This document shows, piece by piece, positions 6,201 through 56,301 of a stretch of 64,000 nucleotides of DNA. The notes below the pieces were generated by a model. That model did not search any database. It was not told where the DNA came from and saw only the letters and a program-made list of their open reading frames with translations. How positions within the stretch are numbered: position 1 is the stretch's first letter; every line of letters starts with the position of its first letter. The stretch lies in assembly GCF_009914755.1 (NCBI RefSeq), contig NC_060925.1; one strand, given 5' to 3'. The translations under genes and the position numbers were made by a program. This DNA is from the human T2T-CHM13v2.0 reference genome, Homo sapiens.

Positions 6201-6689
6201 TACCTATAATGTCCAGGCCGAATAATGGCCTTGAACTCCTGGGTTCAAACAATCCTCCTGCCTCAGCCTCCTGAGTAGCTGGGACTACAGGTGCATGCCA
6301 CTATGCCTGGCTAGAATACATTTAGTTGTTTAAAAGACATAGGTTCTATAGGAAGAAAATTATATATGTAATATAATACATTTTCATAATATAATTCTTC
6401 TAAAATTAATACATAGGATAAGATAATGTTTATATAATCAAAATAAATGCTCATGAAAAAGTTTAAAATTGATTTTGTGATTACTTGTTTAAGGCTTGAG
6501 TCTATGGCCAAAGAATAACTGATCTTTCCCTTTTGTGAATTTGTAGAGTAAGATCTTTTTATTCTCATATTGCTCCCTTCCTACGTTTGCATTTGCTTTC
6601 TGGAATAATTTTCTTTTTCCTTGAAGAAATGTCTTTGGTATTTTCTATAGTGGTGGGTCTGCTGATTACTTTTTGTTTAAAGGCTTGCT

Positions 6690-7060
6690 TTCTTTTCTCT
6701 TCTTTTCTTTTCTTTCTTTCTTTCCTTTCTTTCTTTTTCTTTCTTTCCTTCCTTCCTTTTTTCCTTCCTTCCTTTCTTTTCTTTTCTCTTTTCTTTTTCT
6801 TTATTTTCTTTCTCTCTCTCTTTCTTTCCTTCCTTCCTTCTCTTTTTCTTTTCTTTTCTTTCCCTTCCTTCCTTCCTTTCTTTCCTTCCTTTCTTTTCTT
6901 TTCTCTTTTCTTTTCTTTCTTTCATTCCTTTTCTTTCTCTCTTTCCTTCCTTCCTTCTCTCTCTCTTTTCTTTTCTTCCTTCTTTCTTTCTTTCTTTTTC
7001 TTTCTTTCTTTCCTTCCTTCCTTCCTTCCTCTCCTTCCTTCCTTCTTTCATTTCTTTTAT
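6690..7060. repeat. Compound (CTTT/CCTT/CT)n polypyrimidine tract
   Basis: About 370 bp that is almost exclusively C/T on the + strand. Confidence 0.95.
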
Positions 7061-48668: not shown

Positions 48669-49409
48669 TCACGCCACTGCATTCCAGCCTGGGCGACAGA
48701 GTGAGACTGTGTCTTAAAACAAAACAAAACAAAACAACAACAAAAAAACTCAAAAACTAGGAATATTGGCTATCTATATAGGAGAGATGAAATGAGACTT
48801 TTACTTCACACAAAAATCAATTCCAAATGGACTAGAAACCTACATGTGAAAGTCAAAATTATAAAGCTTTTAGAAGACAATATCTAAGATCTTGGGGGTA
48901 GGAAAATTTTTTTTAAGTAAGAGATAAGAAGCACTAACTCAAAGGGAAAAGGTTCATAATTTTGATTACCTTAAATTTAAGAATTATTTTTGTCAAGAAA
49001 ATACCATTAAAACAAAAACAATCCACAAAATGGGAGACTGTATTTGCAACACTTATAACTGACAAAGGACCAGTATCCAGAATAGAAAATGACCTTCTAG
49101 GAATCAATATTATAAAAATACACAACCCAATAGAAAAATGGGCAAAAAGCCTGAATGTATACCTCACCAAAGAGAAAATCCCAATGGTTGACATACTTAT
49201 GAAAAGCTGCTCAATTTCATAAGTGATCAGGGAAATACAAACTAATATCACTACTTACATAACAAGCTGGCAAAAATTACAAAGTCTAGGCCGAGTGTGG
49301 TGGCTTACGCCTGTAATCTCAGCACTTTGGGAGGCCGAGGTGGGCGGATCACCTGAGGTCAGGAGTTCAAGATCAGCCTGGCCAGCGTGGTGAACCTCTG
49401 TCTCTGCTA

Positions 49410-49703
<294 letters not shown>

Positions 49704-49993
49704 TTATCTGTTAAAGTTGCAACACACTTTGCAACAAACAATTCTATTCATCTGTCAGTATACTAGATAAGCTCTTACACAAGTGCTCTAGACTAAGAGA
49801 CATACATAAGAACATTCTGGCCAGGCATGGTGGCTCACACCTGTAATCCCAGCACTTTGGGAGGCTGAGACGGGTGGATCACCTGAGGTTGGGAGATCAA
49901 GACCAGCCTGACCAACATGGAGAGACCCCGTCTCTACTGAAAATACAAAATTAGCCAGGCGTGGTGGCGCATGCCTGTAATCCCAGCTACTCA

Positions 49994-50128
<135 letters not shown>

Positions 50129-50537
50129 TTATTTCTAGAAGTATCCTCAAACTGGAAACAACTCAAATGTCCATAAATAGTAGAATAAATATTATGAATA
50201 TTATGGTATATGAGGACTGGCATGTAGGGAGCAATTCTCTCTTTAAACTGCATATGTGTATTTTATGTCTCTCTGTATGTATGACAGATCTCACAGTTTT
50301 TGAACAGTTTTATAACTATTATAAAACTGTTTAAAAACTTTTATGTTATAAAATTTATGTACAACATCTTGCTAATACATTTTAAATCTCTAGGAGATGG
50401 AGGCTTTTCTAGGAAAATAGTATCATTAATCCTTGAAGGAGAAAATTGGCCAATTTTCAGTGAAAAATTGGATGCACTAATTTTTAGAAATGCTAAAAAT
50501 TTTGCCTGGATTCCTCAGACAGGTTTTTTCAGACTTT

Positions 50538-50850
50538 TTTTTAATTTTTATTTTTATTTTAATTTTATTATTATTATACTTTAAGTTTTAGGGTACATGG
50601 GCACAATGTGCAGGTTTGTTACATATGTACACATGTGCCATGTTGGTGTGCTGCACCCATTAACTTGTCATTTAGCATTAGGTATATTTCCTAATGCCAT
50701 CCCTCCCCCCTGCCCTCACCCCACAACAGTCCCCGGAGTGTGTGATGTTCCCCTTCCTGTGTCCATGTGTTCTCATTGTTCAGTTCCCACCTATGATTGA
50801 GAACACGCGGTGTTTGCTTTTTTGTCCTTGTGATAGTTTGCTGAGAATTA
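50538..50850 (-). mobile_element. Short L1PA3-like 3' end
   Basis: 3'UTR with tttagcattagg and acagtcccc variants; TSD CAGACTTT at 50530-50537 and 50853-50860. Confidence 0.85.
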
Positions 50851-52379
50851 TGCAGACTTTCAAGGAGTAGGGTAATCCCCATGCTATATAAACAGTGTAA
50901 GAGCATAGATAACGACTGAAAGTATTCCCATTTTATTTCACATAGCTACTAATGTCCTTTAAAAAGTCCAGATGAGTATAGAGAAAATAAATCTTATGTA
51001 TTAATATATAGGTGCTAAATCCAAATTTAAAATAGCAAATTTAATGTGGTAGAAAATTACAAGACTAAAACACCATGAACATTTAGGGTGTATGTCAGGG
51101 AAGCAATAATATTTTACTATTTGAAAATATGCTACTATAGGTATATATCACTTCTCATCTAAGAGTTGAATGAAATGTCTGAGTTCTCATTTTGGTTCTG
51201 GGAAGGCTTCAGAAGGATTCTTCACAACAGGCTGTTATACTTCTGAACCAAGCAGTCTCTTGGAACCCACACTATACATCTAGAAATGTGTTCAAGCCTT
51301 CTCAGGCCTGCTGCGAATAGCCGCTTCTTCTGTCCACCCCAGGATGTGGTGGGGATCCTGATTTTGGCAGGCTGGACCTGCCAAAGATGGTGGTGGAGAC
51401 CCACTGGCCAACTCTATGACACACTTAGTCCTCATTTACCTAAAAGTGGGTAGAGCTCTGTGTGGCGAGACCAGGTTTTCAGATAAAGGTAATCTGGAAT
51501 GAGGATTTCAAGATGTTTTGAGGTGTATCTCCCTATAAAAGTTAAGGCTATAGCCATATGGAGGACACTATCATGAGGAGCCCTTCCTGAGGGAACTTCA
51601 GGGTTCAGGAACTTATAAAATTATCCAGATGAGGAGATTTTGTGGAAGCCTTGTGCTATGGCCATTCATTGCCCTGCGCCACCCCATCCCCTGACTGGAT
51701 GCCCATAACCTGACCATCTCTTTGAGGACCTACACTTTCCACTAGTGCTACTTTGGTCCTCTGTTAAGCTCTTTCTCACTCACTAACCGTTCTCTAGTGA
51801 TTTCAGATAAATAAACTGGGGGAGTCTTATCAGAGGAGGCTGAGAATCTGCTCTCACACCAGAGGTAAGGCTGTAACTGAGCCTATGCAAAGGCCTTCTT
51901 CTGCTAAGAAAATGCATATGCCTCTTCCCTAAGCCTGAGGCCTCTCAAGGGTATATCAAGCGAGTTTATGGTAAGGGGCTTAGCAGACCATACTGAGGTA
52001 CTCTTTAAAAAAATGGTTAGTTCCATCTTCATGAAGGTTATTTTTATTTCAAATTCATCACCATCCTGGACTGCTACCATCTTCTCCTGATCTAGACAAA
52101 CCTCTATGGTACATGAATCTTTATGACATCAGACTTTGGGATTTCTATGGCCTCATCCACATCCCACAAGGTGAAAAGAAGATGGTTTTCCAGAGAAGCC
52201 TTGTCTAATGCAGCTCTATGGTAATGCTGTGTGGCTTGTGCCACATTCTAGCATTTGACCTACTAGACTGATATTTGGATGACATTAGTGAGAGTTTCCC
52301 ACAAGCTAATGTTTCTTGGGCTTCTTTCCAGCCAAGGAGATTTGCATGATGCTGGACAGGGTTCAGAACTGAGGATCTT

Positions 52380-52690
52380 GGCCAGGTGCAGTGGTTCATG
52401 CCTGTAATCCCAGCATTTTGGGAGGCTGAGGCAAGCAGATCACCTGAGGTCGGGAGTTTGAGACCAGCCTGGCCAACATGGTGAAACTGTGTCTGTACTA
52501 AAAATACAAAAATTAGCCAGGTGTGGTAGTGGGTGCCTCCAAGCTACTCAGGAGGTTGAGGCAGGAGAATCCCTTGAACCCGGGAGGTAGAGGTTGTGCC
52601 TAGCCGAGATTGCTCCACTGCATTCCAGCCTGGGCAACAGAGCGAAACTCCATCTCAAAAAAAAAAAAAGAAAAAAGAAAAACAGAAAAA
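52380..52690 (+). mobile_element. AluS inserted in the Gypsy RT region
   Basis: Imperfect TSD aactgaggatct / aattgaagatct. Confidence 0.93.
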
Positions 52691-53459
52691 AATTGAAGAT
52701 CTCCTAGGTAACCATCTTTTGGAGTTTGATCACCCCTACTGATATAAATTCTTACTCCACTTTCCATAACAGTCTAGGTAAATTGCTTCTTCAGAAACAG
52801 ATAGGGATTATCTAGTTCCCCAAGAGTACTAAGGCAGTCCAGGGGCTAATTATTTACCATCCACCTGATCCTGGCACAGCTTGATCCAGTCTGACCTCAT
52901 ACAGCGGGAGGCCATTTTTTAGGAGGACTCAGTTCTGAGAATCCTTGCTCCTGTGCCTATTTCAGACAGAAACTGATGTCATTGTATAGCAACCACTCCA
53001 CTTGGAGATGAGAATTCCTTGTTATAAGGCTTCATGTGAGACTTGGAGGCACTATATCAGAGTCCTGGCATCCAGTAAGAGTATACAAGAACTACTGCAG
53101 CCTAGAACAGCTACTGAAAGCCTGGAAACTTAGCCAGGCCAGATAAGCTAGATGGATTTTTTTTTTCAAGTGCTTTAGGTTGACTATCTCTACTGTTCCA
53201 AGGACCTAGAATTAGAGTCACTGATACACTGAAGAATAGTCATAATCTGAGCAAATGGCAGATTACTGGGAAGGGCCTCTGAGATATCCTTCAGCAGGCC
53301 AAGACTGACAAAAAAGACACACATTGACCAGCACCTGACAGTGCTGAGAATATATGGGAGGGAAATATACCAAATAAATACCTACCATAATGGAAATGAG
53401 GACCTCTAGCTGGCGCTCTTCAAACTTGACTTCCAGCTACAATTAACTTCCTCTATGCC

Positions 53460-53753
53460 GGCTGTGCACAGTAGCTCACACCTGTAATCCCAGACTTTGC
53501 GAGGCTGAGGCAAGTGGATCACTTGAGGTCAGCAGTTCGAGACCAGCCTGGCCAACATAGTGAAGCCCCGTTTCTACTGAAAATTCAAAAATTAGCCGGG
53601 CATGGTGGCATGCCTGTAGTCTCAGCTACTCAGGAGGCTAAGGTAGGAGGATCATTTGAGCCTAGGAGGCGGAGGTTGCAGTGAGCCGAGATTGCACCAC
53701 TGCACTCTAGCCTGGGCGACAGAGTAAGACTCTGTGTCAAAAAAACAAAACAA
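53460..53753 (+). mobile_element. AluS inserted in the Gypsy fossil
   Basis: TSD AACTTCCTCTATGCC. Confidence 0.93.
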
Positions 53754-54537
53754 AACTTCCTCTATGCCATTTGGTCTCATCTCTGCCCTGTGTAGTCTGC
53801 CATCCACCTTGGACCACAATAGGCTTTCTTTATGTCACCAGAGATAGCACTGCCGGTTCCAGGATTTGGTCCTCCAAAAGGACTATGACTGAAGATGGTG
53901 GTAGTAGGAATCTTACTCTCAAGATGTTTTAGCAGGTAAATTCAAGCCCCAGCTTTCCTTCCTTATGGGGGGATCTGTGGATCATGGATTCTTAATAGCT
54001 CCATTTATAGCCAGTGTCTTACTGCTGGTACCCTATAAAAGACTCTCCTGTGGCCTTCTGTTTCTCCTGCTACAATAGGCTTAACATTTAGGACTATCAC
54101 TTGCTTCTTAAATACTCCTTCACTCCAAACATGAATTTTAGTCCTTTTACTTCACACCAGAAGTCTTTATTAGAATCAATTAAGAATATTCATGGAAAGA
54201 GATTCATGGGTATTAATTAGCAACCAAGCTATCCTGGTCTATAGCTGATAAAAAGGTATTATTGAAGGTTTTGAAGGAAAACTTGCTGAACTCTATAGAT
54301 TATTGTAAAACGTTTACAGTAAAACTGTAAAAGACTCCTAATAATTTTTTTCCTCATCAGAAGTCTTATGACAGTATCTCTAATGTCTCAGACATTTATA
54401 AGAAAATGACCAGGATCTGTTTCATAGCGTGCAAATTCAACTACAGACTAGTTTTGAAATTTTTTTGTTCTAGGTACAATAAAAAAAGGTTAAAAAATGT
54501 ATTAGTCAAGCTTTATATCTGGAAGGATACTTAGGGG

Positions 54538-54751
54538 CAGTGGTGTGATAGAAACTCACACTGGCTCACAAGAACCAATTATATACAAGCCTTCTCAAGT
54601 CCACATTCTGTGATAACATACTGAATTGATGAATATCACTGAAATTGCCTGGTGAGAGTGTTTTTACCATGGAAATCAGAAATTGCTACAAATCAGGGCT
54701 TCCCCCAACTCCCTCAGAAATGGTTGTTAAACATTTACCAGGTCACCACTG
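54538..54751. mobile_element. MER63-like hAT-Blackjack element
   Basis: TIRs CAGTGGTG ... CACCACTG; internal gctacaaatcagggc and gttgttaaacatttacca. Confidence 0.7.
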
Positions 54752-55039
54752 CATATGGATCACTTAGAGTAAACAAACAGCTTCATTAAAAAAAAAAGAT
54801 AAGGACTATTAGGCATTTACTCAAGAACTCTCAACTAATTAGGTGAAGTTAGGACTAAAACCCAACACCTTCATCTGCCTTGTCCACTCTTCTTCCTGAT
54901 ATGCAATAAGATACCATTCTAACCCTCTGAATCCAGAATTTAACCATCAGTGACATTAACAAAGCTGTAGTAAACTTACTTTACCACTATAGGCTTCAGT
55001 TTCTTTATCTACAACATATGGATTTAGATTTGATTTCTA

Positions 55040-55357
<318 letters not shown>

Positions 55358-55730
55358 CTAATAATGAAAGAAATATAAGGTATATTACTGCTCATTGTGG
55401 TTGATTTCAGGAGCCTACAGTGGGTCATTTCACCACATGCTGCCGTTTTTTGGCTAGAGTGACCAGATCTCTGTTCCCAGAGAGGACAACGTTTCCTAGT
55501 TCTCAGGGCTTTTATTAACTAATAAGGAATAATGTACCTTTTAAACGTTGAAACCAGCTCTTAACTGTTAGGAGATCTTGGTAAATACAGTTTAACTATT
55601 TACCTTAGGGGATTAAAACCTGCTATAGACCTTTCCCATATCTCAATAGATAAAAGGTGAGCACCTTTTCCAAAAGTGTCTCAAATCTTGATCCATTCAC
55701 TTTATTAGCAGTAGAGGGATTTTTTTTTTT

Positions 55731-55960
55731 AGTGGTTAAGCACAGACCACATAGATTAGAATCCAAGCATCATACTTAACTATTTTTGTGAACTTGAGCA
55801 AGACATTTAACTACTCAATTTCTCAGTTTCCTCATCTTAAAAAATGAGGATAATAATAGTTAATGTCTCATACTGAGGATCAAATGAGTTAATATATGCA
55901 TAATGCTTAGAACAGAGTCTGGCATATAATTAAGTACAAGGTAGGTGTTTGCTACTTCTG
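55731..55960 (+). mobile_element. MIR
   Basis: Core tcagtttcctcatcttaaaaaatgaggataataata ... aatgcttagaacagagtctggcata. Confidence 0.85.
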
Positions 55961-56301
55961 TTGTTATTATGCAATCACAGTTGACCTGGTCAGTTGCATA
56001 AAATTTATTAGGAGGCCATTTAGACATTAGTAAATAAAACAATCTTTTTGTATCTGTTTTTACGGCACTTCACTACTCCCTGTCCCATTACAACCCAGAT
56101 CCCACACCGTGTCAATAAGAGATAATATGATTTAGGTGTATGTTAATAGCCAGTCACCACTGCACAACTCTTTGAACTGAACTGATATAAAGTTAATTGA
56201 ATATAGTTATGTTTAGAGGAATTGTATTTATCAGTTCCTCAATAGCGGTGAGTGAATAAATGAGCTGGTTTTTCTGCTTGTAATCTTTTATCTCTTCTCA
56301 G

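What the first reader, a model, noticed from the sequence alone, without database searches (positions are those of the whole stretch)
51250..54050. Hidden Ty3/Gypsy (Sushi/PEG10/RTL1-like) gag-pol fossil inside an AXDND1 intron
Seen: this stretch looks unique and has no useful ORF, yet translation across stops and frameshifts gives many Gypsy pol motifs in the correct order. Protease end IP*LDAHNLTISL (cf. IPWL..HNP.IDW); VLSEEAENLLSHQR*GC (cf. VFS..EA..LPPHR.YDC); GYIKRVYGKGLSRP (cf. EYI.E.L.KGFIRP); ITILDCYHLLLI (cf. IT..D.YPLPLI); FYGLIHIPQGEKKMVF (cf. AY.LIRI.EGDEWKTAF); VMLCGLCHILAF (cf. VMPFGLCNAPATF); YLDDI; FLGF..ICM.LDRVQ. RNase H follows: CAYFRQKL, EFLVI/KASCETWRHYI, HPVRVY..SLEQL..LSQAR*ARWIFFF (cf. 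HPV.VYTDH.NLEYL..L..RQARW.LFF). Known: Gypsy elements are no longer active in mammals and survive as domesticated genes (Sushi-ichi-derived PEG10/RTL1/RTL family) or faint relics. Inference: this is either an ancient Gypsy insertion with an unusually complete pol, or a lost autosomal RTL-type domesticated gene.
Basis: partly seen in the sequence, partly recalled or inferred. Interest (0 to 1): 0.8.

Follow-up and report, generated by a model that had tools for sequence, protein, structure and literature searches.

The report
Decayed Gypsy retrotransposon pol fragment
An intron of the human AXDND1 gene holds a long-dead, heavily broken piece of a Gypsy-type retrotransposon (reverse transcriptase plus RNase H), which is an ordinary genomic fossil rather than a hidden gene.

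Summary
The core claim holds. Window 51830-53231 (+ strand; T2T chr1:178,859,830-178,861,231) is a decayed Ty3/Gypsy pol fragment: part of the reverse transcriptase, then RNase H, with one Alu inside it and a second just downstream.

RNase H is well supported. A frameshift-aware profile alignment scored 127 against 61.3±7.6 for 40 shuffles, and hhalign gave E 4.3e-5. The RT core is supported by hhalign (E 4.7e-5) and by colinear extension from the RNase H anchor (0 of 100 shuffles and 5 of 226 genomic controls reached it). That extension depends on the gap settings.

The protease tail, gag, integrase and LTRs are not supported. Nothing in 53232-54050 is above noise.

The closest relatives are fish Sushi-like pols (about 31% identity) and RTL1. 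One alignment setting needs 17 frameshifts and 5 stops, so this is no present-day gene.

Gypsy relics in the human genome are known repeat families (PMC5753468). I could not check Dfam, and I found no human paralogue. Verdict: real but ordinary, and less complete than claimed. Interest is low.

The parts
51830..52370 (+). Reverse-transcriptase remnant: N-terminal part through YLDDI and FLGF, profile positions 310-551. Spread over three frames with large internal deletions.
   Evidence: Colinear frameshift-aware alignment. hhalign of frame-2 piece 52134-52313 gave E 4.7e-5 at alignment columns 310-349. hhalign of frame-0 piece 51925-52134 gave E 0.012 at columns 230-295; this is colinear but not significant alone, because a decoy reached 0.0092. 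Anchored extension: 0 of 100 shuffles and 5 of 226 genomic controls reached the real score at one setting, no extension at the strictest setting, and 2 of 100 at the loosest.
52380..52702 (+). Alu insertion 1, including the poly-A tail and the second copy of a roughly 10-nt target-site duplication. It splits the RT remnant.
   Evidence: Read directly (ctgaggatct before, ttgaagatct after). Alu-type repeat family shared with 53460-53768 and about 55090-55360.
52716..52943 (+). RT C-terminal and connection region remnant (profile positions 552-653). Weak.
   Evidence: Only seen as part of the colinear alignment, with low block scores. Not tested alone.
52944..53231 (+). RNase H remnant (profile positions 654-749). 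At the stricter setting it has 4 frameshifts and 2 stops. One stop sits where Sushi-like pols have the Q of RQARW.
   Evidence: About 31% identity to fish Sushi-like pols (32/103, 32/99, 34/108) and 22/88 to human RTL1. Pfam RT_RNaseH E 0.016 at the same place.
53460..53768 (+). Alu insertion 2 with its second target-site duplication copy (aacttcctctatgcc). It lies 3' of the detectable relic.
   Evidence: Read directly; repeat families.
51695..51736 (+). Possible protease C-terminal tail (LDAHNLTISL...). It sits at the colinear place but is not above chance.
   Evidence: Best ungapped profile position is in the protease end. However, 52, 90 and 112 of 200 shuffles reached it, and hhalign gave E 0.21.
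51798..51864 (+). Alternative AXDND1 exon (from the hub's gene table). Its 3' half lies on the first block of the RT alignment.
   Evidence: AG at 51796-51797 and GTAAG from 51865, read. Exon coordinates come from the annotation supplied with the finding.

Best explanation
This is the neutrally decaying remnant of one ancient insertion of a Ty3/Gypsy (Metaviridae) LTR retrotransposon of the Sushi-like lineage, in sense orientation within an AXDND1 intron. Only about 1.08 kb of its pol survives recognisably: part of the reverse transcriptase followed by the RNase H domain. It is broken by many frameshifts, stops and deletions and is interrupted by a later Alu. It encodes nothing today. Its only visible present-day effect is that a minor AXDND1 transcript splices in a 67-nt exon that overlaps it.

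Shown: homology of the RNase H and the RT core to Gypsy pols, their order, and the decay. Inferred: a single ancient insertion, neutral decay, and loss of gag, protease, integrase and LTRs by truncation or erosion.
For: - RNase H: 127 against 61.3±7.6 (max 79, n=40), reverse complement 59. Best of 82 tiles of the whole window on both strands. hhalign E 4.3e-5; the reverse strand of the same stretch gave 0.53.
- RT core: hhalign E 4.7e-5. The wrong frame gave 0.54 and the reverse strand 0.77.
- One colinear alignment spans profile positions 310-749 and window 51830-53231 with score 196, against 79.7±9.1 (max 106, n=30).
- Upstream extension from the RNase H anchor scored 53 against 5.0±6.9. 0 of 100 shuffles and 5 of 226 real genomic controls reached it.
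- 6 of the 8 reader blocks scored have their single best ungapped position, among about 1290, at colinear profile places.
- Lineage: RNase H scores against 250 proteins average 65 (max 111) for 33 Sushi-like pols, 75 for 88 RTL1 proteins (87 orthologue clusters plus human RTL1), and 48 for 129 pols of the ant-like set. They average 31 (max 44) for 27 other human PF17917 loci.
- Decay: 17 frameshifts and 5 stops in 332 aligned residues, with an Alu inside.
- Gypsy traces are an established, small repeat class in the human genome (PMC5753468; passages read).
Against: - The RT evidence depends on settings. There is no extension at the strictest gap setting. A free local search of the RT stretch alone was reached by 38, 3, 6 and 16 of 100 shuffles. 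Pairwise RT alignments to five fish pols were reached by 0, 7, 6, 0 and 7 of 40 shuffles.
- Standard single-frame searches are negative or marginal.
- Pfam E-values near 0.01 also arose for two plainly spurious families in the flanks, so the Pfam hit alone proves nothing.
- No gag, protease, integrase or LTR was detected, so the element type rests on RT and RNase H only.
- No other copy was found in the human genome by DNA or protein search. This is unexpected for a repeat family, although those searches are too coarse for copies this decayed.
- The Sushi-like placement rests on score ranking, not on a tree.
Confidence: 0.88

Rival explanations
1. It is a pseudogenised, once-domesticated RTL/SIRH-type gene, that is, a lost autosomal paralogue of PEG10 or RTL1, rather than a plain dead transposon copy.
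For: The RNase H is nearer to RTL1 and Sushi-like pols than to other Gypsy pols. No human paralogue was found, so it looks single-copy.
Against: No gag or CA signal upstream, and gag is the part that all domesticated RTL genes keep. The frame has 17 shifts and 5 stops. The relic keeps YLDDI and the R(Q)ARW and xDxL boxes of active elements, which fits a transposon copy. No protein in the 5.8-billion-protein set resembles it (weak evidence). A survey of metaviral capsid genes in T2T reports 24 intact genes and 2 pseudogenes, and none is said to be here (PMC11011659; passages read, supplements not seen).
Confidence: 0.05
2. It is a chance resemblance: a unique intronic sequence that happens to hold pol-like motifs.
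For: Motif-level look-alikes do arise here. MPFGLISA at 53764-53787 scored hhalign E 0.0092 in a non-colinear place. Most standard searches are negative.
Against: Two independent single-frame pieces each reach E of about 4.5e-5 at colinear places, while three negative controls give 0.53-0.77. The RNase H alignment lies 8.6 sd above shuffles, and pairwise to P0251 it scored 111 against 38.0±5.0.
Confidence: 0.03
3. It is a relic of an endogenous retrovirus pol, not of a Gypsy element.
For: Pfam RT_RNaseH also matches many human loci, probably ERVs, at 31.7-46 bits.
Against: The RNase H stretch scores only 27-44 (mean 31) against 27 such human loci. It scores 74-111 against RTL1 and Sushi-like pols. 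I did not verify that those 27 loci are ERVs.
Confidence: 0.03

Closest known systems
MamGyp-int, MamGypsy2 and other LTR/Gypsy repeat families of Repbase/Dfam
   Same: They are ancient, dead Gypsy remnants scattered in mammalian genomes, listed as the Gypsy traces of the human genome (PMC5753468). They are used as ordinary RepeatMasker labels in 23 papers.
   Different: Membership could not be tested, because no Dfam or Repbase consensus is available here. The PNMA2 preprint ties MamGyp-int to the PNMA gag lineage (bioRxiv 10.1101/2023.02.09.527862), whereas this relic scores best against Sushi-like pols and RTL1. No human paralogue was detected.
RTL1 (PEG11), human chr14, the domesticated Sushi-like gag-pol gene
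   Same: RT-RNase H region of the same lineage. 22 of 88 residues are identical over RNase H, including the W-[IV]-FFF stretch. RTL1 orthologues as a group score high (mean 75).
   Different: RTL1 is an intact 1358-aa ORF with gag and has lost YLDD. The relic is shattered, has no gag, and still shows YLDDI.
Sushi-like (chromodomain-bearing) Gypsy pols of teleost fish, such as P0251 (Nerophis), P0244 (Corythoichthys) and P0240
   Same: They are the best pairwise matches: 32/103, 32/99 and 34/108 identical over RNase H. They share a common alignment path through the RT motifs.
   Different: The fish proteins are full polyproteins with protease, integrase and chromodomain (Pfam lists). None of those parts is detectable here.
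Gypsy RNase H relics on human chr15 (G000:C15:69118551-69118841 and 69176254-69176451)
   Same: They are also isolated, stop-ridden Gypsy RNase H fragments in the human genome.
   Different: They belong to another lineage. Their nearest protein found was an ant Gypsy pol at 38% identity. They do not align with the AXDND1 relic above noise at protein or DNA level.

Membership tests
Ty3/Gypsy (Metaviridae) pol | Reverse transcriptase with the motif series in order, including the YxDD box | tested here: met
   hhalign E 4.7e-5 for 52134-52313. YLDDI at 52272-52286 falls at its best profile position. Colinear alignment. The support depends on settings.
Ty3/Gypsy (Metaviridae) pol | RNase H of the RT_RNaseH type directly downstream of RT | tested here: met
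Ty3/Gypsy (Metaviridae) pol | Integrase downstream of RNase H (the order PR-RT-RH-INT separates Gypsy from Copia) | tested here: not met
   No integrase signal up to 56000. The anchored downstream extension was 0 at two settings and was reached by 23 of 60 shuffles at the third. In the free search, 41 and 34 of 60 shuffles reached it. No Pfam hit. It is either absent or eroded.
Ty3/Gypsy (Metaviridae) pol | Aspartic protease upstream of RT | tested here: inconclusive
   A look-alike sits at the colinear place but is not above chance. No DSG/DTG active-site block was sought by eye.
Ty3/Gypsy (Metaviridae) element | gag (capsid) upstream, and flanking LTRs | tested here: not met
   No gag family in three frames of 48700-51701. 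The only direct repeats in 50300-55500 are Alus.
Sushi-ichi-like lineage (source of PEG10 and RTL genes) | Closer to Sushi-like pols and RTL1 than to other Gypsy or retroviral pols | tested here: met
   Score ranking only. No tree was built, because that would need a read-through sequence too short and broken to be reliable.
MamGyp-int / MamGypsy2-I (Dfam, Repbase) | Aligns to the family consensus | not testable with these tools
   No Dfam or Repbase library is at hand. The window file carries no soft-masking.
MamGyp-int / MamGypsy2-I (Dfam, Repbase) | Other copies in the same genome | tested here: inconclusive
   DNA searches with 51250-52378 and 52700-53455 and protein searches with two frame pieces found only the locus itself. 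The best other hits had E 0.21 and 1.87, and those loci show no Gypsy signal. The searches use a coarse first look and would miss copies this diverged.
Domesticated RTL/SIRH gene | Intact ORF that keeps the gag-derived capsid | tested here: not met
   17 frameshifts and 5 stops, an Alu inside, no gag.
Domesticated RTL/SIRH gene | Purifying selection across mammals | not testable with these tools
   No other mammalian genomes are available here.

The most novel reading that the evidence does not exclude
The relic is not a copy of any catalogued mammalian Gypsy repeat family. Instead it is a single surviving pol fragment of the very Sushi-like element population from which PEG10 and RTL1 were domesticated. 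That would make it a rare non-domesticated 'sister' that still shows ancestral RT and RNase H motifs RTL1 has lost. It could then serve to date and root the RTL domestication events.
Probability: 0.12. Interest if true: 0.4.

Novelty: new member of a known kind. Interest (0 to 1): 0.17.

Why it matters
It matters little in itself. It is one more dead Gypsy fragment in a genome already known to hold such traces. Three things are modestly useful.

- The relic is invisible to ordinary single-frame tools (Pfam, BLAST, phmmer) but clear to frameshift-aware and profile-profile methods. It is therefore a good calibration case for this kind of scan.
- It scores nearest to the Sushi/RTL1 lineage and keeps motifs RTL1 has lost. 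If it is not covered by Dfam, it would be a small extra data point on the elements that gave rise to the RTL genes.
- Part of it is spliced into minor AXDND1 transcripts as an alternative exon.

Tried and rejected
- Pfam on nine single-frame read-throughs gave only RT_RNaseH, below its cut-off.
- PDB phmmer on four frames gave nothing relevant.
- tblastn of human RTL1 and of an ant Gypsy pol against the window gave nothing significant in the locus.
- hmmsearch of my first profile on six-frame read-throughs, whole and in 120-aa chunks: the RNase H hit was third in the window at E 1.2.
- BLASTP of the frame-1 RNase H piece against P0251 gave E of 5.9 or worse.
- Genome-wide PF17917 search: the locus is not among the 150 scored of 1513 candidates.
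- Genome-wide search with fish pol P0244 returned RTL1, PEG10 and what are probably ERVs, but not this locus. The tool said weak matches were dropped.
- A second RT copy around MPFGLISA and 'FMGIN...RYY*RF' (53764-54332) looked tempting for its spacing but is within noise.
- Integrase downstream and protease or gag upstream are not supported.
- No LTR pair and no Rfam family.
- Kinship with the chr15 relics is rejected.
- The window-wide runner-up score of 101 is a K/E/R-rich low-complexity artefact.
- Earlier findings were not open.
- An alignment query was not accepted for this genome.
Full report
**What was checked first.** The window is human T2T-CHM13 chr1:178,808,001-178,872,000, and the finding lies in an AXDND1 intron. 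Two Alus sit in the stretch. The first is at 52380-52702, with an imperfect roughly 10-nt target-site duplication. The second is at 53460-53768, with a perfect 15-nt duplication. Both were read and recur as Alu-type repeats.

**Standard tools are nearly blind here.**
- Pfam on nine single-frame read-throughs (stops as X) gave one hit: RT_RNaseH, E 0.016, 15.8 bits.
- That E-value means little alone. Two plainly spurious families reached E 0.039 and 0.0071 in the flanks.
- PDB phmmer gave nothing relevant in 4 of 4 frames.
- tblastn with human RTL1 (taken from the assembly) and with an ant Gypsy pol (P0002) found nothing significant in the locus.
- BLASTP of the RNase H frame against the best fish pol gave E of 5.9 or worse.
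- hmmsearch of a home-made profile on single frames put the RNase H piece third in the window at E 1.2.

**Comparators.** The human assembly could be searched. PF17917 genome-wide gave RTL1, two Gypsy RNase H relics on chr15, and many hits of about 32-46 bits that are probably ERVs. The chr15 relic led to an ant Gypsy pol and, through it, to 150 representatives. The RT-RNase H region of RTL1 led to 33 Sushi-like or chromodomain-bearing pols, P0240-P0272, several from teleost fish.

**Frameshift-aware test.** I wrote a protein-profile-to-DNA aligner that allows frame changes, and I scored it against controls.
- With the ant-like profile, the best alignment is RNase H at 52955-53231. It scored 102, against 51.6±4.2 (max 60) for 40 dinucleotide shuffles and 45 for the reverse complement.
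- With the Sushi-like profile it rises to 127 over 52944-53231, against 61.3±7.6 (max 79, n=40) and 59 for the reverse complement.
- Across the whole 64-kb window on both strands in 82 tiles, the two tiles holding this stretch are the top. The other 80 average 65.6, sd 10.4, max 101. The 101 is a K/E/R-rich low-complexity artefact.
- Pairwise, the stretch is 32/103, 32/99 and 34/108 identical to three fish Sushi-like pols. The best scored 111 against 38.0±5.0. It is 22/88 identical to human RTL1, which scored 74 against 39.3±4.8.
- One stop sits where these pols have the Q of RQARW.

**The RT.**
- After masking RNase H, no free local alignment in the stretch exceeds shuffle noise.
- A free search restricted to the RT part was reached by 38, 3, 6 and 16 of 100 shuffles at four settings.
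- I then asked the sharper question of whether the alignment extends upstream from the RNase H anchor. The answer was nothing at the strictest setting; 53 against 5.0±6.9 (0 of 100 shuffles) at the middle one; and 128 against 81.2±21.6 (2 of 100) at the loosest.
- Against 226 real genomic stretches of the window put in the same place, 5 reached 53. Some of these lie in L1-masked stretches.
- At the middle setting a single colinear alignment runs from profile position 310 to 749 and window 51830 to 53231. It scored 196, with 17 frameshifts, 5 stops and 332 aligned residues, against 79.7±9.1 (max 106, n=30).
6 of the 8 blocks have their single best ungapped position, among about 1290, at the colinear place. 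One is second-best there. One (FYGLIH...) is not in its top three.

**Independent profile-profile check.** I ran hhalign of single unaltered frames against 13 Sushi-like pols.

| Piece | Window | E-value | Alignment columns |
|---|---|---|---|
| RNase H, frame 1 | 52952-53209 | 4.3e-5 | 542-625 |
| RT core, frame 2 | 52134-52313 | 4.7e-5 | 310-349 |
| RT N-terminal, frame 0 | 51925-52134 | 0.012 | 230-295 |
| RT core, wrong frame (control) | 52135-52314 | 0.54 | - |
| RT core, reverse strand (control) | 52134-52313 | 0.77 | - |
| RNase H, reverse strand (control) | 52952-53209 | 0.53 | - |
| MPFGLISA decoy | 53764-53943 | 0.0092 | 340-347 |

The decoy result shows that values near 0.01 are noise. 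So the RNase H and the RT core are real, and the remaining RT blocks are credible mainly because they are colinear.

**What is not there.**
- The protease-end block sits at the colinear place but is not above chance: 52, 90 and 112 of 200 shuffles reached it, and hhalign gave E 0.21.
- No gag family appears in three frames of 48700-51701, and no integrase family in three frames of 53769-56301.
- There is no downstream extension and no second RT or integrase.
- No LTR pair and no Rfam family.
- The part of the finding from 53232 to 54050 holds nothing detectable.
About 1.08 kb of relic DNA covers 440 profile positions, roughly 18% shorter than expected, with large gaps after the MPFGL-equivalent and YLDDI boxes.

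**Lineage.**
- RNase H scores against 250 proteins average 65 (max 111) for the 33 Sushi-like pols, 75 (max 98) for 88 RTL1 proteins, and 48 for 129 pols of the ant-like set.
- They average 31 (max 44) for 27 other human PF17917 loci.
- Scores against the chr15 relics are at noise.
- The relic keeps YLDDI, which human RTL1 lacks at that place (my reading), so it is not a copy of the RTL1 gene.
- This is score ranking, not phylogeny.

**Copies and literature.**
- DNA searches with two parts of the relic and protein searches with two frame pieces found only the locus itself in the human assembly. The weak extra hits show no Gypsy signal.
- No protein in the 5.8-billion-protein set resembles the RNase H frame.
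- These searches are too coarse to exclude an old multi-copy family.
- The Repbase review lists the human Gypsy traces: MamGyp-int, the MamGypLTR families, LTR85, LTR88, LTR104 and X1-X4_LR. It notes that mammals hold only a small fraction of such elements (PMC5753468; passages read).
- MamGyp and MamGypsy2 labels occur in 23 papers of the library (search listing).
- One preprint derives the PNMA2 gag from a MamGyp-int element (passages read).
- A survey of metaviral capsid genes in T2T covers capsid only (PMC11011659; passages read; supplements not seen).
- No paper in the library holds both 'AXDND1' and 'Gypsy'.
- I could not consult Dfam or RepeatMasker, and the window file carries no soft-masking. 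Whether this copy is already annotated stays open. From recall, RepeatMasker usually labels such fragments.

**Verdict.** This is a real, ancient, dead Ty3/Gypsy pol fragment (partial RT plus RNase H) of Sushi-like affinity. Interest is low. It serves as a useful example of a relic that only frameshift-aware and profile-profile methods recover, and of how easily single motifs mislead.

Noticed in passing
window 51798-51864: An alternative AXDND1 exon from the supplied gene table (67 nt, AG before and GTAAG after) lies on relic DNA. Its 3' half is the first block of the RT alignment (SEEAENL...). This looks like a small case of transposon exonisation. At 67 nt it would shift the reading frame.
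   Followed up: partly
window 53764-53814: MPFGLISALCSLPSTLD begins in the second target-site copy of Alu2. It is a better match to the RT 'MPFGL.NAP' box than the colinear block, yet it lies downstream of RNase H with no supporting neighbours. It is a chance decoy.
   Followed up: yes
G000:C15:69118551-69118841 (L002/L033) and G000:C15:69176254-69176451 (L028): Two isolated Gypsy RNase H relics about 58 kb apart on chr15. The first is the best PF17917 match found in the human genome (94.4 bits despite 5 stops). Its nearest protein found was an ant Gypsy pol at 38% identity. No other pol domain turned up on its strand in the 10 kb around it. It belongs to a different lineage from the AXDND1 relic.
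   Followed up: partly
window 6641-6973, minus strand: A K/E/R-rich low-complexity read-through with no frameshift over 111 codons. It gave the second-highest profile score in the window by matching the profile's low-complexity tail.
   Followed up: no
window about 55090-55360: A third Alu-like repeat downstream of the finding.
   Followed up: no
window 48701-51700 and 53771-56299 (read-through frames): Pfam gave Astro_1A at E 0.039 and SMMA_C at E 0.0071 on stop-ridden intron read-throughs. These are evidently spurious. They are a reminder that hmmscan E-values near 0.01 on such queries are noise.
   Followed up: no
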